Below are positions 37,038-59,918 of a stretch of 64,000 nt of DNA, one piece after another; the stretch's first letter is position 1, and each line of letters starts with the position of its first letter. The translations under genes and the position numbers were made by a program. The stretch is from an uncultured Collinsella sp. GTDB taxonomy: Bacteria; Actinomycetota; Coriobacteriia; Coriobacteriales; Coriobacteriaceae. Below the pieces are notes generated by a model. It was not told the DNA's origin, searched no databases, and saw only the letters and a list, made by a program, of their open reading frames with translations. Where the stretch lies: the NCBI GenBank assembly GCA_900542945.1, contig UQPI01000001.1, forward strand, positions 6,215 to 70,214, written 5' to 3'.

Positions 37038-37166
37038 CCTATTCCTCAAAACTGAAAATCTTTCGATTTTGAGGAATAGAATTAAGCCAGCTCGGCCTTT
37101 AACGAGGTATACTCGTTGCAGAGTCTATTCCTCAAAACTGAATAATTTTCGTTTTTGAGGAATAGC
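37038..37166. repeat. Two palindromic hairpins CTATTCCTCAAAACTGAA-N-TTTTGAGGAATAG upstream of the ATPase cassette (third copy at 38393-38441)
   Basis: Near-identical inverted repeats at 37038-37081, 37124-37166 and 38393-38441 bracket gene 37192-38388. Confidence 0.8.
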
Positions 37167-37191
37167 GATAGAAGACCACAGGGAGGCACCA

Positions 37192-38388: not shown

Positions 38389-38474
38389 CAAAAAAATCCT
38401 ATTCCTCAAAACTGAAAAATTTTCGATTTTGAGGAATAGGATTGGCGGCTGGTTGCTGCGACCTGGCGTTTACT

Positions 38475-39611: not shown

Positions 39612-39748
39612 TCTCGATCTGTAACATCTAGACCCGATTTGGGCGGCTAGGTGTTACAGATCGAGATGTTGAGTCCCCGCCTGGACGGTTTGTCTAAATC
39701 TGTAACACGAGGGATGGATTTTGCCGAGTAACTGTTACAGATCGAGAC
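39612..39748. repeat. Two further copies of the TCTCGATCTGTAACA...TGTTACAGATCGAGA hairpin unit
   Basis: Units at 39612-39672 and 39688-39748 have the same 15-bp arms as the 20.6-kb locus and different spacers. Confidence 0.8.
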
Positions 39749-41920: not shown

Positions 41921-42012
41921 GCAAGAAAGCTATCGCGTATTGAGTGGGCGGGGAGTGCCGTATCGGTGCTCCCCGTCTTTTTGCCAATAGAGTGTCCCTG
42001 ACCAGCGGGTTC

Positions 42013-42100
42013 AGAAAATCCGAATCTTTAGAACATGAAAATCCGAATTATATAAATACGAAAATCCGAATCACAACCACCCGAAAATCCGAATTTGCTA
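42013..42100 (+). repeat. Five direct iterons GAAAATCCGAAT spaced ~12 nt, upstream of the second DUF4143 ATPase
   Basis: cagAAAATCCGAATc...tGAAAATCCGAATt...cGAAAATCCGAATc...cGAAAATCCGAATt. Confidence 0.8.
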
Positions 42101-42153
42101 CAGTGGAATAGAGGAATCAGAAAGCAGGAACTGGAAATCTGCGGGGGTGGCTC

Positions 42154-43458
42154 ATGGCGGGCGAGAGGCTACATCGGGACGGATACATCCCACGTATCGT
42201 GGATGCGCAAATCGAGCGCTACCTTCGTGTCTTTGGCGCGGTCGAGATTGCGGGCACCAAGTGGTGCGGCAAGACGTGGGCCGCGCTCGAGCACGGGGCG
42301 TCCGTCTCGTATGTCGACGAGAATCTCGACCTCGCGCGTGCCGACCCGGCGATGATGTTGCTGGGTGACCGTCCGCATATTATCGATGAGTGGCAGCGCG
42401 TTCCCCAGATTTGGGACTACGTTAGACACGAGGTTGACCGCACCCGGGGCACGCGCGGCGCCTATATCCTCACGGGTTCCGCCACGCCTGCGTTTGGCTC
42501 AAAGGCGGAGGCGCCCGCGCATAGTGGAGCCGGCCGCATCGGCCGCGTCCGCATGCACCCCATGACGTTTGCCGAGACAGGTGAGTCCAACGGCAAGGTG
42601 AGCCTGGCGGGCTTGTTTGAGCATCGTTTTGAGCCCTGCCGGTGCGATGGCGATACGCCGGGGCTTGTCGAAGCCGCCTGCCGCGGCGGCTGGCCCGAGG
42701 CGATCGATATGGTTTCGGCTGACGCCCAGCTCATCGCCCGCGAATATCTCAACACCACATTTTCGAGCAGCTTCCCGGCGGTCGGTCTCGACCCCGATAT
42801 TGCTCGTCGAGTCTCCGCATCGATCGCGCGCAATCTGGGACAGGCAACCACGTATAAAACGATTCTTATGGATATGTTCGGTGCCGAGGAGGAACCCGCA
42901 GCGTTTGCCGACGAGACCAAGGTGCGTAGGTACCTGGATGCCCTCAAAGGCATGTTCATTCTCGAGGAGGTCCCCGGTTGGGTTCCCGCCGCGCGCGACA
43001 AACGGCGCTTTACCGTCAAGCCCAAGCGCTATCTGGCAGATCCGAGCCTTGCTTGCGCCTTGCTAGGTATGTCCTTGCAGGCGCTGCTTGCCGACTGGCA
43101 GACATTTGGTCTGGTGTTTGAGAATTTGGTCATACGCGACCTTTCGGTCTACGCACGTTCGCTCGACCTGCTGGATAGCACGCCCGTGCGCTATTATCGC
43201 GACGATTCGGGCCTTGAGTGCGATGCTATCGTGCAGCTAGCCGACGGACGGTGGGCCGCCTTTGAGATTAAGGTGAGTGAAGATAAAGCGAGCGCCGGCG
43301 TCGAGAGCCTCAAGCGCGTTCGCAAGAAGGTCTGTGGAAATCCCCGTTCACGCACACGCGAACCGGAGTTTATGGCCGTGATTGTGGGGGTGGGTGAGTA
43401 CGCCCGCGAGGTCGAGGACGGTATCTACGTGATACCCGTGCGCGCGTTGGGGTGTTAA
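42154..43458 (+). CDS. AAA-family ATPase with DUF4143-type C-terminal domain (second copy)
   Basis: Walker A GTKWCGKTWAALE. Same architecture as 37192-38388. Terminator hairpin at 43463-43490. Confidence 0.7.
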   Translation: MAGERLHRDGYIPRIVDAQIERYLRVFGAVEIAGTKWCGKTWAALEHGASVSYVDENLDLARADPAMMLLGDRPHIIDEWQRVPQIWDYVRHEVDRTRGTRGAYILTGSATPAFGSKAEAPAHSGAGRIGRVRMHPMTFAETGESNGKVSLAGLFEHRFEPCRCDGDTPGLVEAACRGGWPEAIDMVSADAQLIAREYLNTTFSSSFPAVGLDPDIARRVSASIARNLGQATTYKTILMDMFGAEEEPAAFADETKVRRYLDALKGMFILEEVPGWVPAARDKRRFTVKPKRYLADPSLACALLGMSLQALLADWQTFGLVFENLVIRDLSVYARSLDLLDSTPVRYYRDDSGLECDAIVQLADGRWAAFEIKVSEDKASAGVESLKRVRKKVCGNPRSRTREPEFMAVIVGVGEYAREVEDGIYVIPVRALGC

Positions 43459-43534
43459 GGGGCAGCACGCCGTGTGTCCGCTGCCCGGTGCTACGGATCA
43501 GTGCAAGGGGGTCAGGCTTGTTTGCACCAAGGGT

Positions 43535-43735
43535 TTGACATATGGGGGGGGGAGGCCGCTGGCGCTAACGAGGGCGTGTTAAGGGTGCTCGACTGGCTTA
43601 AACGCACCCTTAACCTCATCTTCACCTCAAATGAGGCTAAGATGAGGTTAAGATGAGGCAAGCAAACAACTGGGCAAATGCTGAAAATAGGGTGCTGTTA
43701 ACCTCAAAATGAGGTTAAGATGAGGCAAAGCTCGA
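43535..43735 (+). promoter_or_regulatory. Candidate regulatory region: TTGACA followed by a G9 homopolymer, then nested palindromes including a 21-bp perfect palindrome TTAACCTCAAAATGAGGTTAA
   Basis: TTGACA 43535-43540. G-run 43544-43552. Hairpins GTTAAGGGTGC...GCACCCTTAAC and TTAACCTCATCTT...AAGATGAGGTTAA. Duplicated AAGATGAGG motifs. Lies ~350-550 bp upstream of the SipW-type operon. Confidence 0.4.
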
Positions 43736-44079
43736 AGGGGTGTGCGAACCGTTCCGCGGACAATGCGCGCCTTAAGCCAACGATGAGCCTGGGTCGATTT
43801 TCGATTTCAACGCAACACCTGAGCCTTTCCCCTGCACCACGTTGGCGCAAACTAACCTGTCCCCCTCGCACCAAGCCCTTGGCGCGCGGGACAGGCTGCT
43901 GCTTGTAATCTTTAAGACATCATTAAGGCTTGCGCTGTGGAGCAAACCGCAGGTCAATGCTATTCTTTTACCTTATCGTATGGTGTTGTATTCTGCCTGA
44001 ATTCTATGCCTACGAGCAACGGATTGATCGCGACCAAGCGGAAAGGATGGCACGCCCGCTAGCAGGGCAAACGTAAACG

Positions 44080-45132
44080 ATGAGTGGCATGGACCGACAT
44101 AGCGAGCTCCAGCAGCACAAGACGGTGGCCGAGTACCGCCAAGCTGCCGACGAGCACGCGCGGACCCTCAAGGATTTCTGGAAAGATTTCCTGGTGAGCG
44201 GTCTGTTTGTGCTGGCCGCCATCGTTGCCATCTTTGCATGCCTGGCCTGGTTTGCCGCGAATAACCGAGTGAGCGCCACGGGGAGCACGATCGGGGCGAA
44301 GGGTCCGCGGTTTGTGCTCTCGGGAACGCAGGGCGGCACGGCGGGCAAGTACGACGCCCAGGACAACTACGCGTCGGACAGTACAAGCCTTGCCGTGAAC
44401 AATCTTTTCAACCTCAATAACATGAGTGCCGATGGCAGTCTCTCTCCGGGGTCGGCTGGTCAGCTCCAGCTCAACGTCAAGCCGCTCTGTAATGACCTGC
44501 GTGATATCACGGTGGAAATGACCTGGGAAATCTCTGTCCAGACGAGCGCTGCGGGCACGGGCGGCACCGCTACGGACGCATCGAAAAACGAAGAGATCAT
44601 CAACTCGCTTAAAAATCTGGTGCGCGGCCATATCCTGGTTTTCCAGGGCAAAGACGACTCTGGCTTTTACTCGAATCCGCTGGTCCCCACGACCACCACG
44701 GTGACCCAGGACGGGGCCAGCGTCACCGTCATTACGCAGAGCTTTACCATCCCGGCGCGGAGCTTTTGCGCTGAGGGCTCAAATAGCACGACAAGAACCG
44801 TACCCAAAACCCTCTACTGGATTTGGCCGGAGCAGTTTAAGAGCTATGTTCGCACGGGTAATGCCGGCTACGGCGGCAACCTTTTTGCAAGCACAGACGC
44901 CGGTTACACTGCCCTCGTCGGCGACATCAACAATAACCACGCGCGCTATTTCCGCGCCGACAGCACGAGCGTTCCGGGCCAGGCGCCCAGCGAGGTTCCG
45001 CCTGTCAAGGCCGGCATGTCCTCTGCATTTGTGGAAGCCTGCGCCGGCTATTACAACAACGCCGACGAGGTTATCGGCAAGAATATCAAGTACATTCGCG
45101 TGCGCTTTACCGCCAAGGAGGCGGATAAATAA
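44080..45132 (+). CDS. TasA/camelysin-like protein with SipW-cognate-type signal peptide (paralog 1)
   Basis: Cytoplasmic N-tail, one TM/h-region, then LAWFAANN and SATGS resembling the A.F.D / AAGTLDL motifs of SipW substrates. Beta-rich extracellular region. No sortase motif. Confidence 0.5.
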   Translation: MSGMDRHSELQQHKTVAEYRQAADEHARTLKDFWKDFLVSGLFVLAAIVAIFACLAWFAANNRVSATGSTIGAKGPRFVLSGTQGGTAGKYDAQDNYASDSTSLAVNNLFNLNNMSADGSLSPGSAGQLQLNVKPLCNDLRDITVEMTWEISVQTSAAGTGGTATDASKNEEIINSLKNLVRGHILVFQGKDDSGFYSNPLVPTTTTVTQDGASVTVITQSFTIPARSFCAEGSNSTTRTVPKTLYWIWPEQFKSYVRTGNAGYGGNLFASTDAGYTALVGDINNNHARYFRADSTSVPGQAPSEVPPVKAGMSSAFVEACAGYYNNADEVIGKNIKYIRVRFTAKEADK

Positions 45133-45951
45133 ATGGACGAGCAGCTTAACGCCCGCGAGCAGGGCGATATCAAGCACAACGAAGAAGTGGTGAACTCCGG
45201 CGACGACGGGTTCGGCTCGCACGGCGAGGCGCGTCCGGCTGGCCGCATCGAGCGCATCGAGACTTGGGTGAGCGGCCACCGTCGCGAATCCCTTGCCATC
45301 ATGGGCCTGGTGGCCGTGCTTCTCGTGTTGCTGGGATTGACGCTCGGATGGTTTGTCGATGCCAATCACGGCTCCACCGTTGGTAAGATCAAGGAGCCGG
45401 CGGAGCTCAAAGTGCTGGGCCCCAACGCTACGGCAACAGAGCAGATCGACCTGAGCTACAACCCCGAATACGGCGATACCAAGACCGGTAACACGGTGAC
45501 GCTCATGCGCCCGTTTTGCGTGCAGACGGGCGGCGATGGGTTTGAGCTGCAGCTTGCGAATACGACCAACATTGAAGGTCTCACTATCGAGCTGTATAAA
45601 GCCGAGAATCCGGGCCCAGGTGATACTTCCGACGTGAGCGGCACTGCGGGCGGCAAGCCCTATAGCTGGAAAATGTCTGAAACGGATCTGCTGAAGGACT
45701 TTAAGCTCATTAAGACCGAGCCGGTCCCCGGTGCAAACGACCCTACATTCAAGGACTACCAAAAGGTCCAACGCAACGCGCGTCCGCTCTACCGTTTCAA
45801 GGTGTTCAACAAAGACGAGCTCAATGCCAAGACGCTCGACGGCTCGACTGGCAACGACACGCTTAACTTCATCATCAAGCTTTCGTGGGACGAGAGCGCC
45901 AAAGAGACCGACGTGATCTATGTGATCGCGCGCAACACGAGCGGTATGTAG
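45133..45951 (+). CDS. TasA/camelysin-like protein with SipW-cognate-type signal peptide (paralog 2)
   Basis: Same architecture (…LLGLTLGWFVDANHGSTVG…). Strong AAGGAGG RBS. The start abuts the previous stop. Confidence 0.5.
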   Translation: MDEQLNAREQGDIKHNEEVVNSGDDGFGSHGEARPAGRIERIETWVSGHRRESLAIMGLVAVLLVLLGLTLGWFVDANHGSTVGKIKEPAELKVLGPNATATEQIDLSYNPEYGDTKTGNTVTLMRPFCVQTGGDGFELQLANTTNIEGLTIELYKAENPGPGDTSDVSGTAGGKPYSWKMSETDLLKDFKLIKTEPVPGANDPTFKDYQKVQRNARPLYRFKVFNKDELNAKTLDGSTGNDTLNFIIKLSWDESAKETDVIYVIARNTSGM

Positions 45952-45965
45952 GAGAGGGGGCGCAC

Positions 45966-46910
45966 ATGGAGAAGCAAGGGAGGCAGCAGGATGCCGAGCG
46001 CGAGCAGCTGGCAAAAGGCAAAAGCCTAGTCAAGAATAAGCTGGTTGTGGCGGCAATCGCACTTGTTTGCGCCGTGGCGCTCGTGACGGGTGGTTACTTT
46101 ACCTATTCCGCCTACACCGCCAACGGATTTCTAAAGTCCGTCGCCGCAACGGGCACCGCGCAGAACCTGTTTGCGAGCGATTTGCTCACGGGCTATATGA
46201 GTGCGCCCAGCAACGACGACCTCGACCGTGCCCAGCGCTCCGTTACGGTGTATCCCAGCGGCGGACAGTGCAGCTTCACCTTTAGCATCTACAACTATTT
46301 GCTGAGCAATAGCAACTTCTGCAACGACAAAAACGTGACGTACACCTTAACGGTCGAGGGGCATGGGCTCGATGATGCCACGTGGAGTTATGCGCCCCAG
46401 CCCAGCGGCAGCGTCACACTTCCGGAGAATCAGCCCACCAAGCACGACTACACCGTGACGTTCCCTGAGGACAAGTTGGGACATGCCTACTTTGTGATTA
46501 GGGCGACGGTTGTTTCGGACAAGAGTCCCGGCACCGAGCTCACCTGTCTGGCGGCGAAAGTCGTGCCGTCAAAGAGGGCCGAGGTCAAAACCGCTGCGGT
46601 TGAGGGCGCGCTTGTTGATGAGGCTGGCGAGTTTGCTGATTACGCTGCGTACAACTACCGCGTGACGGTTACGGGCGCACCGGCAAACGTCACGCTCACG
46701 TGGGGGGAGAACGCGGAGATCGACCCGTTCTTCAAGATCAACCATGGCGCGACGGTGAATGTTGAAAAACACAAGGCTACGTTCACCATGGAGCCGGGTT
46801 CGATGGTCGTCAACTTCTATCGAGCGGACGGCAAAACGCCCGATTCCTGGGGTGACCTGGGCATTAGCGTGAGTGGAACCACCCAAACGGGTACGACGGA
46901 GACTCAATAA
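45966..46910 (+). CDS. TasA/camelysin-like protein with SipW-cognate-type signal peptide (paralog 3)
   Basis: KNKLVVAAIALVCAVALVTGGYFTYSAYT closely follows the SipW-cognate pattern (KK.L..A..LGLALVGGGT.A.F.D). RBS GGAGAGGGGG is present. 15 bp after the previous gene. Confidence 0.55.
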   Translation: MEKQGRQQDAEREQLAKGKSLVKNKLVVAAIALVCAVALVTGGYFTYSAYTANGFLKSVAATGTAQNLFASDLLTGYMSAPSNDDLDRAQRSVTVYPSGGQCSFTFSIYNYLLSNSNFCNDKNVTYTLTVEGHGLDDATWSYAPQPSGSVTLPENQPTKHDYTVTFPEDKLGHAYFVIRATVVSDKSPGTELTCLAAKVVPSKRAEVKTAAVEGALVDEAGEFADYAAYNYRVTVTGAPANVTLTWGENAEIDPFFKINHGATVNVEKHKATFTMEPGSMVVNFYRADGKTPDSWGDLGISVSGTTQTGTTETQ

Positions 46911-46949
46911 CTCTGGCAGCAGAGTTTTAGGATAAGAGGTACGGAATCG

Positions 46950-49900
46950 ATGAGAACGGTAAAGCGCATACTCGCAGAGTTCATGACGGTGGTCATGGTG
47001 CTCCAGGCATGCTCGCCCACGGTGGCCGCCGTGGCGGCCGGCTGGCAGAACATTTCGAGCGAGATTGCCGCCGCGTCTGCGGAGGCATCGGATGCAGCCG
47101 AGAGCGGTGAGACCAACGGCGACGCCGCGAATGGGTCTGGGTCGAGTGATATCGGCGCCGCGGGTGACGGTGCCGAGGATGGTGCTGCGAAGGACGACGC
47201 TGCAACGGGCGATACTTCCGATAGTGCTACGGGTTCCGATTCTACGGGCGACCAGACGGAAGGCGATGATACTGCTGGGGATGCCGCCGCTGATGATGCC
47301 GATCAAAATGCTGGTGATGAGGCTTCGGAAGACACTGCGGCCCAGGCGGGTGCGACGATCACAGATTTGAATAAGCTTGTCGAGCTGCTCAGGGCTAATG
47401 GTGCGGAAAACGTCGAGCTCAAAGACGACGGGAGCGGAATCCGAAGCCTCGATGTCAAGTCGTCGGAGGCGTTCGCCGTCCTGTCTAACGCCGACGCTTC
47501 GCTTTACTATGATGCGCAGATCAAGGTTATCATCACGGGCGATGCGAAGCTCACCGAGTCGGCTAAGAACGGCATGTCTTTCCAGGGCCTTGGCAGTGAT
47601 GAGCATCCGTTTGAAGGCAAAATCTATAGGTCGTTGAATGGCGTTGATAGCCCTGTTGAGCTTACGTCTAACCGGACGGTTTTCAATAACTTCAAACTGA
47701 CTGACCAAAACAATACGGTCAAGATAAAGTGGATAGGCGCAACTACCTATAGCGCGCCGATGGTCGCTACGAAGGTCAGCGGTGGGGGCAAGACGCTCAA
47801 CGCTGTGGTCAACATCGCAGATCCCGTAGGCACCGGCGGGACGGATACGACTTCCGCTCTGACGGCGCCCCTTTTGGGTGAGGCGATGGGTGACCTTACT
47901 ACAGAGGTCACCTATGGCCCTGCCGGTTCTCTCGAGAAGCTCAACGTAAATGCAGCGGGAAACATCGGTCTTTTAGCGAATACAGTCAAGAGCGGAACCT
48001 TTACGGTGGGGTCTGTTAAGTTTCCCGATAGCCTTGCCGCGGGCGGTGTCGTCAAGACGAGCTCCGGTAATGCCGGTCTGCTCGTAGGCACGGTCGAGGA
48101 TGGCGCGACTCTAAACGTCGGCACCCTTAATGTTCCCGCTGTTACCGTTCAGTCTGAAAGCGGTTCCGCCGGTGGCGTCGTGGGCCTCGTCGGTTCGAAC
48201 ACAGGCGCCACAGTCAAGGTCACGGAGGCTCTCGACCTGCACATGCTCACCGTCAAGGGCACCACCGCCAGTGGCGGCTTCATCGGTAAGGCGACCAAGC
48301 TCGCGCTGGGCGCGGACAACAAGAAGTTCACCTGTCCCGCCAACGTCGGCGATAAGAACAGCAAAAGTTCCGGCGGCTTCATCGGCGACGTTAGTTTTGC
48401 CGGCCCGGTCGAGTTTGCCAACAACGACCAAATCGATACGGGCGAGGGCGTGAATCTTGGCCAAAGTGGGGACACGGGCGCGGGCGGCGTGTTCGGTCTC
48501 CTGGACACAACGAACGGCGATGTCGCAATATCAGGTGGCTTGTATACTAGCAAACTGGTGACGGGCTCCAGCTCCATCTATGGCGGTCTGGTCGGTAGAG
48601 TTCAGGATGTGACCAACACAGAGAAGTCGAACAACACCCTTCATATAAAGACGGGTGCCGCGGGCAACCGCTGTTCGGTTGATACTACATGCAGCGTCGC
48701 GCCACGACTGGCAGGAGGCCTGGTCGGCTGGGTGGCAAAGAGCAACAATACTGGAGGCGTTGTAATCGTTGACGGCGCGGACGTCACGTGCCATTCTCCA
48801 AAAGCCAATGGAAAGAACTGCGGGTTTGGCGGTGTTGTTGGCGCCTTGGATAGCGGCTATAGCGTGGGCGGGCGTTCGCGTTTTGGAATTCTGGACTGCG
48901 GGGACGTTCGCGTTGAAACTGATAAAAACGAATCAATCGCATGTGGTGCCGGAATTGTGGGTTCGGCATGGAACGGCGTCTTGCGCTTGCGTGGGACTAC
49001 CGATTTATCCGATTGCAAGCTCGAGGCCAACGGTAATACCAGCCAAATTCTTAGATCCTTGGATGGATGCGCCCCATTGGTGTTTGCTCTAGGTTCAGGC
49101 TCGGATGCTGAGGCAACGAACGATAATTATTGGCTTTACAAACGTCCTGCTGCGGCGAGGATCGATGACCTGACCTATAACCAGGTTATCCGCCTGACCG
49201 GAGAGGAGGGCAAGCTCAGCAAGGATCTTATTAAACTTGATGAAAGCACCTTTTATCAGCCGTTGTGCAATCTGAGTGGTGCTCCAGATGCTGGCAGCAG
49301 TGCTGGCTACTCTTGGGGTAAGCAGCTACGGTCCCAAAATGGTGACGGGAAGTCGGGTACATACCTCATTAATGATGCGGATACATTCGCATGCATTGCC
49401 ATGACGGTCCAAACGAACGGCTACTTTGGCGGTCTATTCGGCATCGGCACGGCTAACATTACGAGCTGGTATGGTAATAGTGGGAATGCTATCTCAATTA
49501 CTTCCGACATTGACCTGCGAGGCACAGGCCTTGAAGGTCTTGCATGTGATGGGTCCGGGCGAGTTAACGCTTTCGTAGGGGCTGTCGAGGGAAACCATCA
49601 TACCGTTACCTTGGCGATTGGCGAACCTTACGGTACGCGCAACGGCAATGCGCTTGGCGCAAACGATTCGACTGAAGGGAACGGCAAGATTTACCGTCAC
49701 AGCCGTCTGGGCCTCTTTGCCGCTATCGGCGGTGGCGCGACGGTGAATAACCTTACCGTCGATGGCGTTATGAAGTTCGATAACGGCTTAGGCGTCGACG
49801 CTGGCTCGCTTGCGGCAACTATCACTGGCAAGGCAACACTCAACGGCGTTACGTGCAAGCCGAAAATCACCTGCGATGATACGTTCGGCAACGATGTCAA

Positions 49901-52900
49901 CATTGGCGGCATTGCTGGTAGCGTGAGGGGTGGTGGAACCGTTACTTTCGGCAGCAGCAACATAAGTGGCAGCACGAAGGCGCAAGCGACCGTCAAAACG
50001 GGCGCTACCCTCAACGGCAACACGCGCATTGGCGGCGCTATCGGTTATGTGGCGGACGTTGTCGCTATCGTCAACGTGACGAGTCTCGAGGTCGGTGACG
50101 CGACGACGAGCGAAAATGCGATTACCGCGGGCGACAGCGCGAGCAATAAGAAATCCCAGGTCGGCGGCTTCATCGGCTGCATCGCTCAAGGGACGCAAGA
50201 GAAACACGTCAACATCACGGGCCTTTCGTTCGACTCGTTCAGCATGACCGTTGGCAAGAACGGTGACGCGAAGAACGGCGCCGGTGGTCTTCTGGGCTAT
50301 AGCTGGGGCAATACTGTTGTCACCATCGGGGATAGCAGCAAAAACACCAGCGTTAGCACGTATGCCCTCAAGACAACCAACGCTTCCATAACCGCTAATA
50401 GCTCAAGTGAACTCGGCGGCCTCGTATACGCCGCTAGTGGCCAATGGATCATCAACGACTATGCGATCGATCTTTCGAACGCAACCATTAATGCCGATAA
50501 GGTAACGGTACTTGGTCTGCTCATCGGTCGAGGCGGTAGGACGGAGAATTCCACAACATATGGAGTGGAAACTTATAGCGGCTTGTATCTGGAGAACAAG
50601 GCGGGTTGGGACACTGCATATAAGATCAATGGTGTTGCTGCGGGCAATGGCGTGAAAATCAACAACACGGCAATCAAAAGCAACGACAATGCTACTTCGT
50701 TTGATGAATGGGTCGGCAACAGCACGAGGCCTGCCTATGGAAATAAAGACGCCAGCAAACTCATGGACGGCGAATGGAATGTCGTCGTTTCGCTTCATAC
50801 CAAAGACGGCGTTAATGACGGTAAGCTCGACATGAGCGGAGAGCCGGGAAACGACAACAGCTATCGCAACCGTTCCGATTTCGGCAAGAACCACAACACG
50901 AATGCCTGGACGAGGTATTACTACAACCTCGACAAAGCCTATGCGGCACTTGGGCAAGGCAGCTCCAAAATTAGCAAAATCGATACGGCGGAAAAGCTGC
51001 TCTTATGGTCCGCTTACCGCTATGCTCCAGCCGCAATTCGCTCGATGATTGTGCCGCAAGCGTTCAACGACGCCGTGGCCATCGGCGGCGAAAGCGGCAG
51101 AAGCGTCGAAATTGATTTGACGGGCTATAGTTACTATCCCACCCAGCCGAACGGAAAGGTGACGGTTGGTAATGCGACCATCACCTTCCATTACTCCGAC
51201 ATCAAGGCCGAGCAGAAAGGCAACAAGCTGAACTCTGCTGCTACCCAGCACGAGAACATGCACTGCGGTCTTTTCCGAACGGTGGCAAATGGCGATCTTA
51301 CGGTGAACGCCGTCACTTTGGGTGGCACTGTTGGGCCCGTTGTCAATGACGGGAGAAGCAAGAATGATATTGCCGCCGCGGGTGGAAGCTCTTCGGGCGC
51401 GCTGGTGTGTCGCTACGTGTATGGGTCTAACAATGGCACGACCACCACTATTAGAAAAATCTCGATTGATGGCCTTACGTTCAACAATTTGACCGTCGAT
51501 GGCGCTAGTGAGGCCACGGGCGCTGATGCTTATATGCCTCTGCTTATAAACGAGATGCAGACGTACGTGAACCTGAGCGCGAAGAACATCACGGCCACGG
51601 GATACGGCCGCAACACCAAGGTGGCAACCTCACTTTTTGGAAGACTGGGCGTGGGTTCGAGTGCCGACCAGGTTACGGCGACGTTTGGTACCATCAACGT
51701 GCCGAGTGCTACGAACAACGCCATCTTTACCCGTGCAAGCTTGCTTGAGAGCTTTGGCTACGGCGAGGGGAAGACCGGCTCGGCGGTGTATACCTTTATA
51801 AAGGATGACCAGACAAACGATAAGGTCACATTCGGCAGCGAGATCGACTCGAAGGGCGAATACTCTGGTAAGCAACTCTGGTACTACAACGAGAGCACCT
51901 ATGGGACCCGCGCTGGCCTCGTCACCGTTGACAACAAAGAGGCAAATGCGGGTACTCCGCAATTCGGCGGTTATCTCCCGTATGTGAAAAAGGGCAATGT
52001 CAACGAAAACAAAGTCCAATACCACGAAATCAAAGTTAACCAGCGTGTGCCCAAGCTTACGACGGGCTGCGGTACCTATGGCGATCCCTATGCCATAACT
52101 AAAGCATCAGAGCTCAACACGGTTGCTGAGTATATCAACACGCAAAATGCAATCGACGGTTGGGAAGTAACGATTGCCGCCAATCAGGAAGAGCTATGTC
52201 AGCGTCGTTCGTCCAGTGAGAATACTGAAAACGAAGTGACGTACATCTACAAACAGGCGAACAAAACATGGGAGAGGAAGACGGAGGATAACACCACCGA
52301 CTCTGGGGATTCGCTTGACGATGCGACGATGCACCGCTATCTCCAAAGCGCCTACTACAGTATCGAGCCGGTTGATAGCGAGGGAAATAGGACCGATACG
52401 CTTGTGCTCGATACCACCGCTTTCCAGGGTTTGGGCAATCAGAGCAACCCGTTCAGGGGGGTTGTTGTTGGCAATCTGAGGGACGGCGGTTTAGCGACCA
52501 TCAAGATTGACAAGCCCGAAGGCGCAAGCGCGCTTTCCGGATTGATCCCGTATAGCTACGGCAGCGTTGTGAGCAATCTGAATATTGAATACTCGGGCAC
52601 GGCAACCTCAATTGCATATAAGAGTAAAGATACATCTGGTGTGCCTGGCGCTTTTTTTGGCGGTGTGATCGGTTGCATCATGGGCGGTGACAATATCATC
52701 GATGGCGTGTCGGTGAATGCGGATGCCGGCTTTAGCGTTGCTGGGGCGGCAGGCGATAATGGCGGCGGCGCGCACCTTGTGCCCGTTGGCGGCTACGTTG
52801 GTGCTGTTGCGGGTGGCGGCGTCATCTTCCGCAACTCTTCGCGCGGCGACGGTGCCCTTAACCCCTGGCATGGCGCCGGTACTTCTCTCTATGACAACCC

Positions 52901-55900
52901 GTATGTTGGCCGCGTGATTGACGGCTATGCGTTCAGCGAGCTTACCGATGGTAGGAGTCTCGACAACACTGATCGCAACTACAAGGTGAACAATCTGGAT
53001 ACTTCGAAGACGGGGTGCATCAAGACGGATGCGACGCAGGGCCGCTATAGGGGAGACGACGCCAATAGCTCTGCGATAACCACAACCGTCAATGACTCGC
53101 AGGGACTGCTCGTACTCTCGGCCATCATCAGCAGCGGTGCGGCCGGCGGTTCGGCGAATACGAATACCACGAACGATGCGTATGGAACGTATGCGGGCTC
53201 GCGTGCCTACATGGGCGGCAACAACGCAAAGGGAGTGTACCAATTCGGCAACAAGCAATACGGCAAAGTTCGCAATGCGAGCTATGCATCCGTTGGAAAG
53301 CCGGGGAGTGCCGACAGCGATTTTGCCGATGCGAAAAACGATGACATGAAAAGCCCCGGTATCCAGTGGGAGGGTAACGCGCTCGACTACACAGGCGATG
53401 GTTCGGGCGTTAACTCCCCCTACCTGATAAAGAAATACGCGACGTGGCAGACGGGCTACGTCTGTGCCGCGCAGGTCTCGGGAATGGATTTGCGGTTCGT
53501 GAACACGAACAAGGACATTGATCCGGACAAGGACATTGATTATGACATGACGCCTTACGGTACGGGTTACACGGGTCTTTCGGGCCGCTACTACTCAAAC
53601 GCATGCGCATCCGGTAAGGGCGCCGACCGCGATCGCATCGTGCCGCTTGTTGCGTGCATCAACGGCGACGACGGTGCAAAAATTAAGGTCGGTAGCAAGA
53701 AGGCCAACAAGGTATATGGGGTCACGGAGTACGCCGACGATAATTACAAACTCACCGGATTGGGCGCTCTCTTTGGCACCGTAACGTACACCTCGACCAA
53801 CGTGTCGGGGAGTATCGGCACTCCGGCAACGGACGGCGCTGCTGCTACGGGCAACGGCGGCTATACCGTCCAGAACCTAAAGTTCGATGACTGCAATATT
53901 TCTCTTACGTATATCAATGCAGCCGGCGCCCCCAGTGGTTCGGGTAATGAGCAGGTTGGCGTCGGTCTGCTTGCGGGTACTACGGCGAACGCGAGCTCGC
54001 TGGCAGATTACGGCAAATATGCAGGAATTACCATGGATAACTGCAGGGTGAATGGCCCCAATAACGTTGGCGGATTGCTCGGCGCATCCGGCTATGGTAG
54101 CCGCAGGACTGACAAAGATGCAACTTTGCTGGTGAATCGTAACGATGAATCACAAGCGACAACGCGCTATTCTCCGGTCAAACTTTACGATTGCTCTTAT
54201 AGCAACATGGACATTTCTGGCGTGCAAAACGTCGGTGGCTTCGTCGGCAAGCTGAACAAAAATTCCGCTGGTGGCGTTTGGACAAAAACGAACATGTCTA
54301 TTGCCAAGAATTCCACGATTATGTCAACTGCTTCTAACGCAAGGACCGGCGGTGTCGTGGGTCTTGCTGGAGGTGGTTTCCTGGTGAACACCGATGATGC
54401 TGGAACGCCTTCGCAGGGTGCCGGAAAGGCGGAGATCAGCAATGTCACGCTTCAGCCGGCAGCATCGAGCGCGACCGAGGGGACCGGCGGCCTTATCGGA
54501 AGGTCCGAAAATGGAATCGTGTCTGTCTACAATCTGTGCATCCAAGGCGACGTGCAGAGTAAAACGGTATTTGGTGTTAGAGGATCGAATAATCTTAAGT
54601 ACGTTGCTGGTGCAGTTGGCGAAGCGGCTTCGGGCGGTGCATTTAAGTTCGATAGCTGTGTAATAAAAGACATCTATCTTGGTGCTCGTGAGTGCTCTGC
54701 CGGTTTAATCGGTGATCTGAAAGGTGGGTGTGCCCTCGAGGTCAAGAATTCAACTATCACTGGACTGGTCGTCGATGGTTCGTATTCTGGTAGTGTTGTT
54801 GGCTCGATCGGTAACACGGCGAACTCTGTCACGCTTTTGAATTCGACCATTGGCGAGAATAACTTTACCGGTAGCAAGAACGCTGCATGGAACTCATCGC
54901 TGGGAAATTGTTCTGGTGGCGTGTCTGGCGATGGCCGTGGCTCATTTAGGCTCGTAAACGTGCTCATGGATCGCAATATCTTTGGGGCGCAAACTAGCCA
55001 GGGATATTTGTTCGGAAATAGTTCATCCGCTGATCTTGTCAACGTTTTTGTCGCAGGAATTGCCATTAGACCAAACAGTGCGAGTGAATCGCTCAAGCTG
55101 ATGCGCAATTCTTCCGGCACCGACGACCTTAAAAAAGTGAACAAAAAGTCATACATCGCATTTGCTGCCTATGAAGACAAGCTTTCCGATGCCAAGGGCG
55201 CGACACTGTATGGCAACGATGCTGCGAACGGCAATGTGACGCCGGCCGTTTCGCCCTACGTGACTACGAGTCCGGTGAGCGAGCTGGCGGTGCGTGCCTC
55301 CGACAACGACACCACCGATCGCCATCTGTTTGGCGACGGCATGAACGTTCCTGGTGCAGCGACTATCAAGGACCAAGCGGGGACCAACGTCACCAACCGT
55401 TATACCTACACCAATATCGGTGGCATCGATAAAGACGGCGCCTATCAAAATACCTCGAGCTACGATGCCTCATCCGTGGCGAGTAAGTTCAATTCGAATA
55501 ATGATACAAGCAACAACCAAGCCACAACGGATTTCCCTGTTTTGGTGATCTCTGGCAACGACAACACGACGGTCAAGAGCTATCTAAACATCATCACGAA
55601 CGGCGGCTTCTCCGACGCTTGCAGATTGAATAACGAGAATGGCACCAATCCGCACGTGACGGCCAAAGCAGAGGTTTTCCAACTCAAGGATGGTGTGTTC
55701 GTTAAGGACGATGACGCGTCGAACAATCCCACGCTTCGCGTAGTGAACAACGGCAAGAACAATATGTCGTTTAGCCCAAGCTCCGATTGGGACAACGGCA
55801 AAGGTCGCTTTACGCTCCTGACCGTTACCTTTACCGAGGCGGGTCAGAGCTACAACGTTCAGGTGCCGATCATCGTTAAGCGCAAGCTCGAGATTGATTT

Positions 55901-57920: not shown

Positions 57921-58036
57921 CCCACCATCTTTCCAGCTTTCCACTTAACTTAACACTTAAGGTGGAAAGCTGGGTAGAAAGCTGGAAAGTTAGGTGGAAA
58001 GCTGGTAAGTTAAGTGGAAAGCTGGAAAGTTGGGAG
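57921..58036 (+). repeat. ~115-bp repeat A: palindrome CCACCATCTTTCCAGCTTTCCAC..GTGGAAAGCTGG followed by tandem GTGGAAAGCTGG(A/T)AAGTT iterons (direct copy at 59549-59644)
   Basis: About 90% identical copies flank gene 58044-59513 in direct orientation. Copy B lacks one iteron. Confidence 0.85.
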
Positions 58037-58043: not shown

Positions 58044-59513
58044 ATGAACGAGGAATGGTTGGCGCAGGTCATTCATCACCTGCGAACAATAGGAAACGAC
58101 ACCCAGCAGTACGAGGTAAAAGAAGCCAAGGGAGCGCTTCCAAAGAGCATCGTCGAGACGCTCTCGGCATTTTCCAACGCGCAGGGCGGCTTTATCATCC
58201 TCGGCATTTCCGAAAAGAACGGGTTTACGCCTGTCGATGGTTTCGATGCTCGCAAGATGCAAGACGCTCTCTCTTCTGCGTGCGAAAAGCTGACGCCCGT
58301 TGTGAGGCCGGATATCCAAGTGGTTCCCTTTGAGGGAAAACTGGTGCTTTGTGCTCGCATCAAAGAGATGCATCCGCGCGATAAGCCCTGCTATATCACG
58401 GCGCGTGGAATGTACGATTCGTCCTTCCTCCGTACGGGCGACGGCGACCGGCGTATGACTCCCTATGAGGTCGACCGCTTTATGGAGGAGCATGTTCAGC
58501 CCACATACGATGACGAGCCAGTCGAAGGCGCCACGCTCGAAGATCTTGACGCCGATCTTCTGCAAGGGTTTATAAAACGCCAGCGCGAGCTGCATCCTAG
58601 GATTTTGGGCGCCAGAAGCGATGAGGAGATTCTCCTTGACCTGCATGTGACCAAAAAGGTGGAGGACGCAATCGTGCCGACGCTTGCTGCTATTGTTGCG
58701 ATGGGACGGTTTCCGCAAAAGTTCTTCCCACGTCTCAATGTGACCTTTACGGCGTATCCCGGGACCACAAAAACGCAGCGAGTAAGCGACAACAAGCGTT
58801 TTCTGGATTCGCAGACCATTTTGGGGCCGATCCCTTTCATGATTGAAGACGCGCTTGCCGCCGTTGCAAGAAACACCCGAAACGCTGCGGTGATTGAGGG
58901 GGCATTTCGGAAAGATGTGCCCGACTATCCGCCCGTGGCACTGCGCGAGGCAGTGGCGAATGCGCTCATGCATCGCGACTACTCTTCCGCCGCGCGCGGC
59001 TCACAAGTGCAGGTCAACCTGTATATCGACCGTGTCGAGATTCTCAATCCCGGAGGACTGTACGGCGATGTCACAGTCGATTCGCTGGGAACTTCTGGAG
59101 TTTCGTCATCCAGAAACCAGTTTCTTTCAAATATCCTCGAGACCACGCCGTACCCAGGCGGTGGCTACGTGGTCGAAAACCGTGGCACCGGTTATCAGGA
59201 GATAGGCGAGCAGCTTGAGCGTGCAAACATGTTGCCGCCCAAACCAAAAAACTCGACGGTTTCTTTTTCTCTGACGTTCGATAAGCGAAAGATAATGCAG
59301 GCGGAACAGGCGACCTCCGTAGGGCATGTGGACGAGGCAATCTTGGGTTACCTGGCAACGCATTCTTCGGCTTCGGCCAAGGAGCTCACGGAGGCTTCGG
59401 GTTTGAGCAGGAGCGCCGTTTCCAACCACATAAAAGGTTTAATTGGCGCGGGCAAGATTGAACCCATGGAGCCACCGCGCAGCCCGCGACAACGGTATCG
59501 ACTCGCGCGGTAG
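58044..59513 (+). CDS. COG2865-type putative transcriptional regulator (Schlafen/AlbA_2 divergent-AAA domain + HATPase-like + C-terminal wHTH)
   Basis: YEVKEAKGALPKSIVETLSAFSNAQGGFIILGISEKNGFTPVDG is the hallmark AlbA_2 N-terminus. C-terminal HTH-like LSRSAVSNHIKGLIGAGKI. RBS GGGAGG precedes the ATG at 58044. Confidence 0.75.
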   Translation: MNEEWLAQVIHHLRTIGNDTQQYEVKEAKGALPKSIVETLSAFSNAQGGFIILGISEKNGFTPVDGFDARKMQDALSSACEKLTPVVRPDIQVVPFEGKLVLCARIKEMHPRDKPCYITARGMYDSSFLRTGDGDRRMTPYEVDRFMEEHVQPTYDDEPVEGATLEDLDADLLQGFIKRQRELHPRILGARSDEEILLDLHVTKKVEDAIVPTLAAIVAMGRFPQKFFPRLNVTFTAYPGTTKTQRVSDNKRFLDSQTILGPIPFMIEDALAAVARNTRNAAVIEGAFRKDVPDYPPVALREAVANALMHRDYSSAARGSQVQVNLYIDRVEILNPGGLYGDVTVDSLGTSGVSSSRNQFLSNILETTPYPGGGYVVENRGTGYQEIGEQLERANMLPPKPKNSTVSFSLTFDKRKIMQAEQATSVGHVDEAILGYLATHSSASAKELTEASGLSRSAVSNHIKGLIGAGKIEPMEPPRSPRQRYRLAR

Positions 59514-59548: not shown

Positions 59549-59644
59549 CCCACCATCTTTCCAACTTTCCACTTAACTTAACACCTAAGGTGGAAAGCTG
59601 GGTGGAAAGCTGGAAAGCTAGGTGGAAAGCTGGAAAGTAAACGG
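59549..59644 (+). repeat. Repeat B, direct copy of the iteron-containing repeat
   Basis: See repeat A. Followed by a G9 tract at 59671-59679 and an AT-rich stretch. Confidence 0.85.
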
Positions 59645-59918
59645 AAGACTGACATGCTAGCTCGGAGGCTGGGGGGGGGTTAATAATTGCACAAACCATA
59701 CCAAGCCAAACAAAAAGATATCAATCTGGTTGGTAAAACACCCTCACTGAGCTGCGAGCTAACTAGCTGCGTAAATAGAACGTAAAGAAATGTCGCAAAT
59801 AAATGGCAAATGCCCAGATGCCGCCGTTGCTATTTTCAATTAACTGCTACGCGCGAACAGCAAAATGCTACTATCTAACATGCACGTAAGAAAGCAGATT
59901 AACGGTTAAGGCTAAGAA

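What the first reader, a model, noticed from the sequence alone, without database searches (positions are those of the whole stretch)
43535..43735. G9 homopolymer immediately after a TTGACA hexamer plus nested palindromes upstream of the fibre operon: possible phase-variable or regulated promoter
Poly-G/C tracts of 9 in a promoter spacer are a classic slipped-strand phase-variation switch for surface structures such as Bordetella fim and Neisseria. Here G9 follows TTGACA on the same strand as the operon. Downstream lie a 21-bp perfect palindrome (TTAACCTCAAAATGAGGTTAA) and duplicated AAGATGAGG motifs that look like an operator. The distance to the first ORF (~500 bp) is long and no clean -10 is visible, so this is tentative.
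Basis: partly seen in the sequence, partly recalled or inferred. Interest (0 to 1): 0.55.

Follow-up and report, generated by a model that had tools for sequence, protein, structure and literature searches.

The report
Orphan repeat array plus unstable G-tract
The supposed switchable promoter is a patchwork recombination junction in a Collinsella accessory island: a G-run that does change length between strains but has no promoter partner, next to a leftover ("solo") copy of a repeat array that in other strains brackets a Schlafen-type defence-like gene with a DNA-binding domain.

Summary
The sequence features are real. TTGACA is at 43535-40, G9 at 43544-52 (three bases later, not adjacent), and the 21-bp perfect palindrome at 43698-43718. 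The "duplicated AAGATGAGG" is eight copies of an 11-bp unit in two clusters (43609-43663, 43697-43730).

The promoter reading is not supported. No -10 hexamer lies 16-19 nt after TTGACA. TTGAC is the last five bases of a 1.6-kb DUF4143-ATPase cassette. In other strains that cassette abuts the operon leader as a terminator-like hairpin. The G-run varies from G5 to G10 in 14 homologous sequences with nearly invariant flanks, so it is hypermutable. A second G9 (59671) with no promoter context varies the same way. Many strains keep the operon without this segment.

The palindromes are a 140-bp array found at this locus in about 35 Collinsella genome loci. In several, two copies bracket a 497-aa Schlafen(AlbA_2)-GHKL ATPase-winged-helix gene. 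A paralogue in this window (58044-59513) and homologues in Bifidobacterium and Eggerthellaceae carry arrays of the same design, each with its own motif.

Best reading: an orphan binding-site array for an absent winged-helix protein. The operon's promoter most likely lies in the conserved leader (43882-44079). The cognate gene-array pairing was not mentioned in the two papers I searched.

The parts
41940..43539 (+). 1.6-kb DUF4143/AAA_14 ATPase cassette: terminator hairpin, four GAAAATCCGAAT repeats at 42014-42094, gene 42154-43458, and a 3' hairpin module ending ...TGCACCAAGGGTTTGAC.
   Evidence: Pfam AAA_14 + DUF4143. PADLOC candidate PDC-S01, E=1e-53. In L022 the same 1602 bp (96% identity) lies on the other side of the array and abuts the leader. 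Tandem repeat.
43523..43540 (+).
   Evidence: The module occurs once per homologous locus, either directly before the operon leader or, as here, before the G-run segment. In L084 and L012 it scores as a terminator-like hairpin with a T-rich tail.
43540..43595 (+). 56-bp junction segment between the cassette end and the array. It contains the G-run. Positions 43573-43585 duplicate the DUF4143 stop-codon region.
   Evidence: Direct repeat D5. BLAST homology of L054 and L087 to the window starts at 43573, directly after the DUF4143 gene, so they lack 43459-43572.
43544..43552 (+). G9 homopolymer, hypermutable in length.
   Evidence: Among 14 independent sequences: G5 x1, G6 x1, G7 x3, G8 x7, G9 x1 (this window), G10 x1. 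One variable site in the 30 nt upstream in 13 of them. The 50 nt downstream are identical in those 13. L031, the fourteenth, has a few substitutions.
43596..43735 (+). Solo ATGAGG-type repeat array. Units at 43609-19(-), 43620-30(-), 43631-41(+), 43642-52(+), 43653-63(+), then a spacer, then 43697-707(-), 43709-19(+), 43720-30(+). Includes the 21-bp palindrome 43698-43718.
   Evidence: 29 distinct copies from Collinsella loci are mostly about 90% or more identical, with the ATGAGG and TAAG cores almost invariant. The array flanks the 497-aa SLFN_AlbA_2/HATPase_c_4 gene on both sides in L084, L087, L031, L033, L017 and L026.
43501..43871 (.). 30-nt inverted repeat arms (43501-30 and 43842-71, 83% complementary), with the 7-bp direct repeat TGCACCA (43523-29 and 43834-40) around the 311-bp G-run/array segment.
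   Evidence: I1. In L012 the two arms form a simple hairpin with a single TGCACCA in its loop and no insert. L003-L006 and L011 also lack the insert.
43736..43881 (+). Array tail (43736-43769, conserved with the array) and a variable segment (43770-43881) that is missing in L031, L035, L065, L069 and L079.
   Evidence: BLAST block structure.
43882..44079 (+). Conserved operon leader, with the extended -10-like TGCTATTCT at 43958-43966. Most likely site of the operon's own promoter (inference).
   Evidence: A 73-nt block, 43906-43978, is almost invariant in 12 strains with and without the insert. The leader is 90-99% identical even where gene 1 is only 44-45% identical. Motif position.
44080..57857 (+). 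Four-gene 'fibre' operon. Three proteins (350, 272 and about 314-341 aa) have an N-terminal membrane anchor. The fourth is a 3635-aa secreted protein rich in G, A, T, S and N. None reaches a Pfam gathering score.
57922..58035 (+). Upstream array (TGGAAAG motif) of the paralogous Schlafen-GHKL-wHTH gene. It contains the extended -10-like TGGTAAGTT 32 nt before the start codon.
58044..59513 (+). REG2: 489-aa SLFN_AlbA_2 + HATPase_c_4 + winged-helix protein, 22% identical to the gene that owns the ATGAGG array.
59550..59640 (+). Downstream array of REG2: same motif and same orientation as the upstream one.
   Evidence: L111 lacks REG2 and has one solo array here.
59671..59679 (+). Second G9, lying exactly at the right junction of the 17.75-kb accessory island (41920-59670).
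   Evidence: Lengths are G7 x6, G8 x2, G9 x2, plus the interrupted GGGGGAGG in L097. Island-less strains read GGGGGAGGGG at this site and join 41919 to 59671.

Best explanation
The interval is a composite recombination junction inside a 17.75-kb strain-variable island of a Collinsella (aerofaciens-group) genome. It is not a dedicated switch promoter.

(1) TTGAC(A) is the end of a 1.6-kb DUF4143-ATPase cassette. Its terminal hairpin plus T-rich tail looks like a terminator and, in other strains, sits directly against the operon leader.

(2) The G9 lies four bases beyond that cassette end, in a 56-bp junction segment. It slips in length like other long G-runs here. It has no -10 partner, and no consequence for the operon can be seen.

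(3) The palindromes and AAGATGAGG repeats are a 140-bp 'solo' copy of a repeat array. In other Collinsella strains two direct copies of this array bracket a 497-aa Schlafen(AlbA_2)-GHKL ATPase-winged-helix gene.

Inferred mechanism: the 11-bp units, spaced about one helical turn apart, are binding sites for that protein's winged helix. The upstream copy acts as its autoregulatory operator/promoter. Recombination between the two direct copies removes or adds the gene and leaves one array. In this window the cognate gene is absent, so the array is probably an orphan relic (or a site awaiting the gene).

The fibre operon is most likely transcribed from the conserved leader at 43882-44079 (candidate extended -10 TGCTATTCT at 43958-66).

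Shown: the anatomy, the presence/absence patterns, the G-run polymorphism, and the array-gene association. Inferred: protein binding, autoregulation, and the promoter position.
For: Indel and mosaic structure:
- The 311-bp G-run/array segment is present in the window and in L002, L007-L010, and absent in L003-L006, L011 and L012, which keep the operon.
- The cassette 41940-43539 is contiguous in L022 on the other side of the array and abuts the leader.
- The TTTGAC module occurs once per locus, and is terminator-like in L084 and L012.
- There is no promoter-like site in the interval.

G-run:
- G5 to G10 with conserved flanks.
- The second G9 at an island junction is equally variable.

Array:
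- The genome scan found it only in Collinsella and always at this locus.
- Array-gene-array occurs in L084, L087, L031, L033, L017 and L026. L068 shows gene-array-gene. Solo arrays occur in about 15 genomes.
- Solo-array genomes show no second ATGAGG locus.

Cognate pairing:
- REG2 in this window carries TGGAAAG arrays on both flanks, and a solo version exists in L111.
- A third paralogue, in L041, carries ATCTGTAACA inverted-repeat units on both flanks.
- Homologues in two Bifidobacterium genomes, an Eggerthellaceae genome and an unidentified metagenome contig have arrays of the same layout with different motifs.
- Upstream and downstream flanks share 23-66 8-mers against about 5 in shuffles.
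- The recognition helix differs between lineages.
- An extended -10-like TGnTAnnnT sits in the upstream array, but not the downstream one, in 4 of 4 REG2-like lineages.

Leader: conserved at 90-99% where gene 1 is only 44% identical.

Protein family: SLFN + GHKL 'Schlatpase', more than 90% with a C-terminal HTH, ATP-driven tetramers (bioRxiv 10.64898/2026.05.29.728809). The pSlfn-HisKinase-HTH class makes up 19% of prokaryotic Schlafens (PMC13056530).
Against: - There is no binding, transcription-start or expression data of any kind.
- The solo array is as well conserved as its flanks, so a function independent of the missing gene (for example a trans-acting paralogue, or a role for the operon) is not excluded.
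- Arrays on both flanks are not explained by simple autoregulation.
- In the ATGAGG family no clear promoter motif was found in the upstream array.
- Most distant relatives (22-34% identity) in viral contigs lack flank-sharing arrays, so the pairing is clade-limited.
- G-run lengths come from assemblies, mostly metagenomic, so some differences could be assembly or sequencing error.
- The leader promoter is a motif match only. TGnTAnnnT is expected about 0.5 times by chance in 550 nt.
Confidence: 0.6

Rival explanations
1. One reading: TTGACA is a -35 element, the G-run lies in the promoter spacer, and slippage (G8/G9/G10) switches the fibre operon on and off, as in Bordetella fim or Neisseria opc/porA.
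For: The TTGACA and G9 are on the operon strand. The run length differs between otherwise near-identical sequences, G5 to G10. The downstream genes look like a surface fibre.
Against: - For every observed run length the hexamer 16-19 nt after TTGACA is GC-rich (GCTGGC, CTGGCG, TGGCGC...). The scan finds no promoter.
- TTGAC is the end of a mobile cassette and terminator-like module.
- The run is 528 nt from the start codon, with a separately conserved leader in between.
- Six related strains carry the operon without the segment.
- An unrelated G9 varies equally.
Confidence: 0.06
2. The G-run is a functional contingency locus acting by another route. For example, it could change read-through from the DUF4143 gene across its disrupted terminator, or alter the helical phase between upstream DNA and the array.
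For: The run is the fastest-changing site in an otherwise conserved segment. The terminator-like tail TTTGACTTTT of other strains is replaced here by TTTGACATATG9. Both G9 runs lie at junctions of inserted DNA.
Against: No element with a length-dependent geometry was identified. The cognate array-binding gene is absent. Run variation is seen equally at a site without such context.
Confidence: 0.1
3. The arrays are primarily recombination sites (att-like or element ends). The Schlafen-GHKL-wHTH gene plus one array is a small mobile or excisable cassette, and the solo array here is the empty or excised site.
For: - All three states exist at one locus: no array, solo array, and array-gene-array, plus gene-array-gene.
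- A solo TGGAAAG array is present where REG2 is missing.
- The arrays are direct repeats on both flanks in several genera and different neighbourhoods.
- Many Logan contigs carrying family members are one unit long, about 1.6-1.7 kb, and L104 starts and ends in the same 30-mer.
Against: Ordinary homologous recombination between 140-bp direct repeats gives the same patterns. No recombinase domain is detected in the protein. Unit-length contigs are expected from assembly breaks at repeats. ATGAGG arrays are at one locus per genome. This model is not exclusive of the binding-site model.
Confidence: 0.2
4. The array acts as RNA. It would be a structured 5'/3' UTR element, or a repeat-derived RNA that binds and restrains the Schlafen nuclease, analogous to type III toxin-antitoxin repeats.
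For: The arrays reach to within 10-25 nt of the start codon, so at least part is probably transcribed. In L084 the strong hairpin with a T-run lies after the downstream array (sequence). The units can form long hairpins. The substitutions seen in the arms are mostly G·U-compatible on the + strand.
Against: - There is no Rfam match.
- Only 2 of 30 pairs show more than one Watson-Crick type. Most variation is at unit positions 7-8 and leaves mismatches.
- Forward units outnumber reverse units.
- The protein has a winged-helix DNA-binding domain whose recognition helix varies with the motif.
- The units are 11 nt, not 34-37 nt.
Confidence: 0.1
5. The 311-bp segment is an invertible promoter (inverton) bounded by the 30-nt inverted repeats, or a MITE inserted with a 7-bp target duplication.
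For: 30-nt arms that are 83% complementary flank 311 bp. TGCACCA is duplicated at both edges, and L012 has the empty site.
Against: - No copy in the opposite orientation was found among about 40 homologous loci.
- No recombinase gene lies near.
- The arms pre-exist as a hairpin without the insert. The left arm belongs to the DUF4143 cassette.
- The insert has no terminal inverted repeats of its own and no other copies in the window or genomes.
- Alternative indel boundaries exist against other strains.
Confidence: 0.04

Closest known systems
Slipped-strand promoter switches (Bordetella pertussis fim C-tract; Neisseria opc/porA poly-C/G; H. influenzae hif) - from general knowledge; cf. PMC1891110
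   Same: A long G/C homopolymer in an intergenic region upstream of surface-structure genes. Its length differs between closely related strains.
   Different: The run is not between a -35 and a -10. The supposed -35 is the end of a mobile cassette. The run is 528 nt from the gene, and a conserved leader lies in between. The operon exists without the run.
Autoregulatory operator arrays of HTH proteins: phased direct/inverted repeats as for OmpR/PhoB-type boxes, toxin-antitoxin operators, and defence-system repressors such as CapW/BrxR (general knowledge)
   Same: Short units repeated at about one helical turn, in inverted plus direct arrangement, immediately upstream of the gene for a winged-helix protein. 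A promoter-like motif is embedded in the upstream arrays of the REG2 lineage.
   Different: A second, near-identical array follows the gene. There are up to eight units per array. The DNA-binding domain is fused to a Schlafen nuclease-like domain and a GHKL ATPase. In this window the array is orphaned.
Plasmid iterons with winged-helix Rep initiators (general knowledge)
   Same: Multiple direct repeats cognate to a wHTH protein encoded next to them. Repeat sequence co-varies with the protein.
   Different: The setting is a chromosomal single-gene unit with no replication genes or AT-rich origin. The units are 11-12 bp rather than 17-22 bp, and inverted copies are always present.
REPtrons (RAYT transposase flanked by its REP/BIME palindromes) (general knowledge)
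   Same: A single-copy gene bracketed by palindromic repeats specific to that gene lineage. One family here (ATCTGTAACA units) is also dispersed at other intergenic sites (20614-20819, 39617-39742).
   Different: The protein is not a Y1 transposase. The flanking arrays are in direct orientation. The ATGAGG family is confined to one locus per genome.
Solo LTRs / attL-attR of integrated elements (general knowledge)
   Same: Three allelic states: empty, solo repeat, and repeat-gene-repeat. These are explained by recombination between direct repeats.
   Different: No integrase or reverse transcriptase is present. The repeats are themselves arrays of short binding-site-like units.
Prokaryotic Schlafen defence proteins / 'Schlatpase' supradomain (PMC13056530; bioRxiv 10.64898/2026.05.29.728809)
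   Same: The gene that owns the array has the SLFN_AlbA_2 + GHKL (PF13749) + C-terminal HTH architecture. Those papers report it as the commonest prokaryotic Schlafen class.
   Different: In the passages found by my term searches, those papers describe sensors such as Ig-like domains or an Argonaute core and do not mention flanking repeat arrays. The HTH class was among neither paper's tested systems as far as I read. No defence function is shown for the Collinsella proteins.

Membership tests
Slipped-strand phase-variable promoter (fim/opc/porA type) | Homopolymer or short repeat long enough to slip (about 8 or more) | tested here: met
   G9 at 43544-43552.
Slipped-strand phase-variable promoter (fim/opc/porA type) | Tract length polymorphic among strains with conserved flanks | tested here: met
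   G5 to G10 in 14 sequences. Caveat: the data are assemblies, not read pile-ups.
Slipped-strand phase-variable promoter (fim/opc/porA type) | Tract lies between recognisable -35 and -10 elements (or between an activator site and the -10), so that its length sets promoter geometry | tested here: not met
   No -10-like hexamer lies 16-19 nt after TTGACA for any observed length. The scan finds 0 promoter-like sites. TTGAC is a cassette end and terminator tail.
Slipped-strand phase-variable promoter (fim/opc/porA type) | Tract belongs to the regulatory region that the controlled gene always carries | tested here: not met
   Six related strains have the operon and leader without the segment. Other strains have array and leader without the G-run segment.
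Slipped-strand phase-variable promoter (fim/opc/porA type) | Expression switches with tract length | not testable with these tools
   Needs isolates, reporter fusions or RNA data.
Invertible promoter (inverton) | Inverted repeats bounding a few hundred bp | tested here: met
   30-nt arms, 83% complementary, 311 nt apart.
Invertible promoter (inverton) | Both orientations found in populations or strains | tested here: not met
   All array and leader matches are co-oriented in about 40 loci.
Invertible promoter (inverton) | Site-specific recombinase encoded nearby | tested here: not met
   Neighbouring genes are an oxidoreductase, a DUF4143 ATPase, the fibre genes, the Schlafen-HTH gene, an HTH_28 protein and a Nuo-like protein.
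MITE | Target-site duplication at an otherwise empty site | tested here: inconclusive
   TGCACCA is duplicated against L012. Against L054/L087 and L022 the boundaries differ.
MITE | Terminal inverted repeats belonging to the insert, and multiple dispersed copies | tested here: not met
   The insert ends are not complementary. The motif is found only at this locus.
Cognate binding-site array of a Schlafen-GHKL-wHTH gene (grouping proposed here) | Array of 11-12-bp units, reverse copies followed by forward copies | tested here: met
   The same layout is seen in REG2, L099, L100, L103 and L105.
Cognate binding-site array of a Schlafen-GHKL-wHTH gene (grouping proposed here) | Two direct copies flank the gene, and the motif is specific to the protein lineage | tested here: met
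   Met for homologous arrays in other strains and for REG2 in this window.
Cognate binding-site array of a Schlafen-GHKL-wHTH gene (grouping proposed here) | Cognate gene adjacent to this particular array | tested here: not met
   No such gene lies between 41920 and 44080. The only family member in the window (58044-59513) has a different motif. Hence 'solo/orphan'.
Cognate binding-site array of a Schlafen-GHKL-wHTH gene (grouping proposed here) | The protein binds the units | not testable with these tools
   Needs EMSA, footprinting, DAP-seq or ChIP.
Type III toxin-antitoxin repeat RNA (ToxIN-like) | Tandem direct repeats of about 34-37 nt, followed by a terminator, upstream of an endoribonuclease gene | tested here: not met
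   The units are 11 nt in mixed orientation. The array runs up to the ribosome-binding site with no terminator. No Rfam match.
REPtron | Flanked gene is a RAYT (Y1 transposase), with inverted flanking REPs and dispersed copies | tested here: not met
   The domains are SLFN_AlbA_2, HATPase_c_4 and wHTH. The arrays are direct repeats. There is one locus per genome.

The most novel reading that the evidence does not exclude
Schlafen-GHKL-wHTH ('Schlatpase-HTH') genes of Actinomycetota form a two-part unit with their own flanking repeat arrays. The arrays would load several copies of the protein next to its gene. That loading could both repress the gene and hold a potentially toxic Schlafen nuclease in an inactive DNA-bound oligomer. 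The direct arrays would also let the unit be gained, lost or amplified by recombination. Solo arrays like 43596-43735 would be the footprints of that turnover. This would be a new control principle for a very common but untested class of bacterial Schlafen proteins.
Probability: 0.2. Interest if true: 0.75.

Novelty: new variant of a known kind. Interest (0 to 1): 0.45.

Why it matters
For the original question the result is deflationary. A textbook-looking "TTGACA plus G9" is a by-product of cassette junctions, and length variation of a G-run alone should not be read as a switch.

The by-product is more useful. The commonest class of bacterial Schlafen proteins (Schlafen-GHKL-HTH) has no known sensor input or DNA target. 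Here each gene appears to come with its own candidate DNA target, the flanking arrays, whose motif changes along with the recognition helix. That makes the DNA specificity and regulation of this class directly testable.

It also explains presence/absence polymorphism, and probably assembly breaks, at these loci in gut Actinomycetota.

Tried and rejected
- Rfam, permissive E-value search over 43300-44300: only chance-level eukaryotic miRNA/snoRNA hits.
- Sigma-70 and terminator scans of the interval: none found.
- Metagenome scan for the G-run flanks: only one extra locus, so read-depth-like statistics were impossible.
- Covariation test of the two hairpins on 29 distinct copies: no support.
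- Inverton and MITE readings rejected (see rivals).
- NCBIfam: no informative hit for the Schlafen-HTH, DUF4143 or fibre proteins.
- PDB sequence search: only domain-level hits (2kyy, 3lmm, Slfn8).
- Distant relatives in viral contigs: flanking arrays mostly absent, so the pairing cannot be claimed for the whole superfamily.
- Extended -10 motif in ATGAGG-type upstream arrays: not found.
- The G-run as part of a conserved small ORF (43474-43656): rejected, because length changes shift the frame and the segment is dispensable (reasoning).
- Literature search for Collinsella phase variation: nothing relevant.
Full report
**Observation.** The sequence features exist.
- TTGACA is at 43535-43540. 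G9 is at 43544-43552, three bases (TAT) later, not adjacent.
- The 21-bp perfect palindrome is at 43698-43718. The first long ORF starts at 44080.
- The "duplicated AAGATGAGG" is really eight copies of an 11-bp unit ATGAGGYTAAG: two reverse and three forward at 43609-43663, then one reverse and two forward at 43697-43730.
- The unit is strongly over-represented: 6 matches against 1.07 expected, and 0 of 100 shuffles reach 6.
- The G-run alone is not unusual: 40 of 100 shuffles give as many G8 matches.
- No sigma-70-like promoter or terminator is scored in 43300-44300. There is no credible Rfam match.

**Organism and locus.** Exact-protein look-ups and a genome scan place the window in the Collinsella aerofaciens group.
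- The segment 41920-59670 (17.75 kb) is an accessory island. It holds a DUF4143 ATPase gene, the finding, a four-gene operon ending in a 3635-aa secreted protein, and a Schlafen-type gene.
- Eight related contigs join the oxidoreductase gene (up to 41919) directly to 59671.
- Within island-bearing strains, the stretch between the oxidoreductase and the operon is a mosaic. The observed orders are: array only; DUF4143 then array (this window); array then DUF4143 (L022, L043); array-gene-array (L084, L033, L017, L026); DUF4143-array-gene-array (L031, L087); gene-array-gene (L068); or no array (L003-L006, L011, L012).

**The TTGACA.**
- In L022 the 1.6-kb DUF4143 cassette (window 41940-43539, 96% identical, contiguous) lies on the other side of the array. 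Its last bases...CAAGGGTTTGAC, abut the operon leader.
- The 17-nt module TGCAyCAAGGrTTTGAC occurs once per locus, either against the leader or, as here, before the G-run.
- In L084 and L012 it scores as a hairpin with a T-rich tail, that is, terminator-like.
For every observed G length the hexamer 16-19 nt downstream is GC-rich (direct reading).

**The G-run.**
- Across 14 independent homologous sequences the lengths are G5 (1), G6 (1), G7 (3), G8 (7), G9 (this window only) and G10 (1). In 13 of them the 30 nt upstream have one variable site and the 50 nt downstream are identical. L031 has a few substitutions.
- Near-identical contigs differ from the window only by this one base. The run is therefore hypermutable, subject to the caveat that these are assemblies.
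- The window's other G9 (59671-59679) sits exactly at the island's right junction. It reads GGGGGAGGGG in island-less strains, and varies G7/G8/G9 with no promoter context.
- Length variation is thus a general property of long G-runs here, not evidence of a switch.
- The run lies in a 56-bp junction segment (43540-43595). That segment is missing from strains that have the array (L084, L054, L087) and from strains that have the operon without the array.

**The palindromes.**
- The 140-bp array (43596-43735) is present at this locus in about 35 Collinsella genome loci. The 29 distinct copies are mostly about 90% or more identical.
- Variation is concentrated at the two bases between the cores and in the spacer between the two clusters.
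- Where a 497-aa gene with SLFN_AlbA_2 and HATPase_c_4 domains and a C-terminal winged-helix-like region is present, one array lies immediately upstream, ending about 20 nt before the start codon. A second, direct copy begins at the stop codon.
- Genomes with a solo array show no second ATGAGG locus, so the cognate gene is probably absent from them, as it is from this window.

**Generality.**
- The window's own family member, REG2 (58044-59513, 22% identical to the 497-aa protein), is flanked by arrays of the same layout built from TGGAAAG units (57922-58035 and 59550-59640). L111 lacks REG2 and retains one array.
- A third paralogue (L041) is flanked by ATCTGTAACA inverted-repeat units.
- REG2 homologues of 55-69% identity were checked in Bifidobacterium sp. 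ESL0728, B. thermophilum, an Eggerthellaceae MAG and an unidentified metagenome contig. Each lies in a different neighbourhood. All have arrays on both flanks, with lineage-specific motifs: GGTCAGTTAAG, GTGGCAAGTTAAG, ATGGAAAGTTAG and TAGTAGTCAAA.
- Upstream and downstream flanks share 23-66 8-mers against about 5 in shuffles. Most control genes in the window share 3-13. Three controls scored higher: two at 21 and 24, and the first DUF4143 gene at 39.
- The winged-helix recognition helix differs between lineages.
- In four of four REG2-like lineages the upstream array, but not the downstream one, contains an extended -10-like TGnTAnnnT 32-101 nt before the start codon.
- The pattern is clade-limited. 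Among 22-34% identical relatives in viral contigs, only L123 clearly shows it, and L122 has an upstream array only.

**Where the operon promoter probably is.**
- The 169-198 nt before gene 1 (43882/43911-44079) are conserved in all strains, with or without the insert.
- They remain 90-99% identical even where gene 1 has diverged to 44-45% amino-acid identity.
- They contain TGCTATTCT at 43958-43966. This is a motif-level inference only.
- In L084 a strong hairpin with a T-run lies between the downstream array and the leader (sequence). That argues that transcription from the array does not feed the operon there.

**Mechanism.**
- What is shown: the anatomy, the allelic states, the run polymorphism, and the array-gene pairing.
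- What is inferred: the units are binding sites for the protein's winged helix; the upstream array is an autoregulatory operator/promoter; and recombination between the direct copies adds or removes the gene, leaving solo arrays.
- Two recent papers describe the domain pair as a "Schlatpase" supradomain, with more than 90% of such proteins carrying a C-terminal HTH. They report that ATP drives tetramerisation and that the Schlafen domain is a tRNA-nuclease effector (bioRxiv 10.64898/2026.05.29.728809). They list Schlafen-HisKinase-HTH as 19.2% of prokaryotic Schlafens (PMC13056530).
- My term searches within those two papers found no mention of flanking arrays.
- A multi-site array fits an oligomeric DNA-binding protein. 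Why a second array follows the gene is unexplained. Candidate reasons are looping, sequestration or mobility.

**Rivals.**
- The spacer-switch model fails its defining test, the -10 element.
- The inverton reading fails because no inverted copies occur in about 40 loci, no recombinase is nearby, and the arms pre-exist as a hairpin.
- The MITE reading fails because the insert has no terminal inverted repeats of its own and is single-locus.
- An RNA role is neither supported nor excluded by covariation: only 2 of 30 pairs have more than one Watson-Crick type.
- An att-like or mobile-cassette role for the arrays remains possible and is compatible with the binding-site model.

**Verdict.**
- As a phase-variable promoter the finding is not supported.
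- As an observation it is real, and it resolves into an unstable G-run at a cassette junction plus an orphan copy of a gene-specific repeat array.
- The array-gene pairing was not mentioned in the two papers I searched and is experimentally tractable.

Noticed in passing
window 41920-59670: The whole fibre operon and its flanking cassettes form a 17.75-kb accessory island. Eight related contigs join the oxidoreductase gene directly to the HTH_28 gene, with about 450 bp between them.
   Followed up: yes
window 59671-59679: A second G9 lies exactly at the right island junction. It varies G7/G8/G9 between strains and reads GGGGGAGGGG in island-less strains. Both G9 runs of the window sit at junctions of inserted DNA, which I cannot explain.
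   Followed up: partly
window 57922-58035, 58044-59513, 59550-59640: A Schlafen(AlbA_2)-GHKL-wHTH gene is bracketed by two direct arrays of TGGAAAG units. The upstream array carries the extended -10-like TGGTAAGTT.
   Followed up: yes
window 20614-20819 and 39617-39742: Arrays of about 55-nt inverted-repeat units (TCTCGATCTGTAACA-N25-TGTTACAGATTGAGA, 81-nt period) lie at two intergenic sites, between convergent genes and after tRNA-Met. In L041 the same units flank a third Schlafen-GHKL paralogue. They may be a REP/BIME-like dispersed family.
   Followed up: partly
window 37040-37080, 37128-37168, 38400-38440: The first DUF4143 ATPase gene (37192-38388) is flanked by three copies of a 41-nt palindrome, CTATTCCTCAAAA...TTTTGAGGAATAG: two upstream and one downstream. 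Its flank-sharing score of 39 is far above other control genes.
   Followed up: partly
window 42014-42094: Four direct repeats of GAAAATCCGAAT (period about 23) lie just upstream of the second DUF4143 gene. They are part of its mobile 1.6-kb cassette.
   Followed up: no
window 42154-43458 and 37192-38388: The second AAA_14+DUF4143 ATPase (42154-43458) matches the PADLOC single-gene phage-defence candidate PDC-S01 (E=1e-53). The first (37192-38388) has the same Pfam domains but was not scanned against PADLOC. The locus behaves like a small defence-gene hot spot.
   Followed up: partly
L089:3600-3880 (and L090-L098, L111): A roughly 270-bp insert with 23-nt terminal inverted repeats (GGACAGTTAGTTCAGATACGTAT...) lies between the giant gene's terminator and the REG2 array. 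It is absent from the window and looks like a MITE.
   Followed up: no
window 43882-44079: The operon leader stays 90-99% identical across strains whose first operon gene is only 44-45% identical. This suggests a conserved regulatory module or a recombination boundary.
   Followed up: partly
window 44080-57857: No operon protein reaches a Pfam gathering score or has an NCBIfam match. Three have an N-terminal cytoplasmic tail plus one membrane helix. The 3635-aa protein has a signal peptide, no LPXTG motif and no internal exact repeats.
   Followed up: no
one search hit list; L104: Many Logan contigs that carry family members are about 1.6-1.7 kb, one gene plus one array. L104 begins and ends with the same 30-mer. 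The flanking direct arrays appear to break short-read assemblies.
   Followed up: partly
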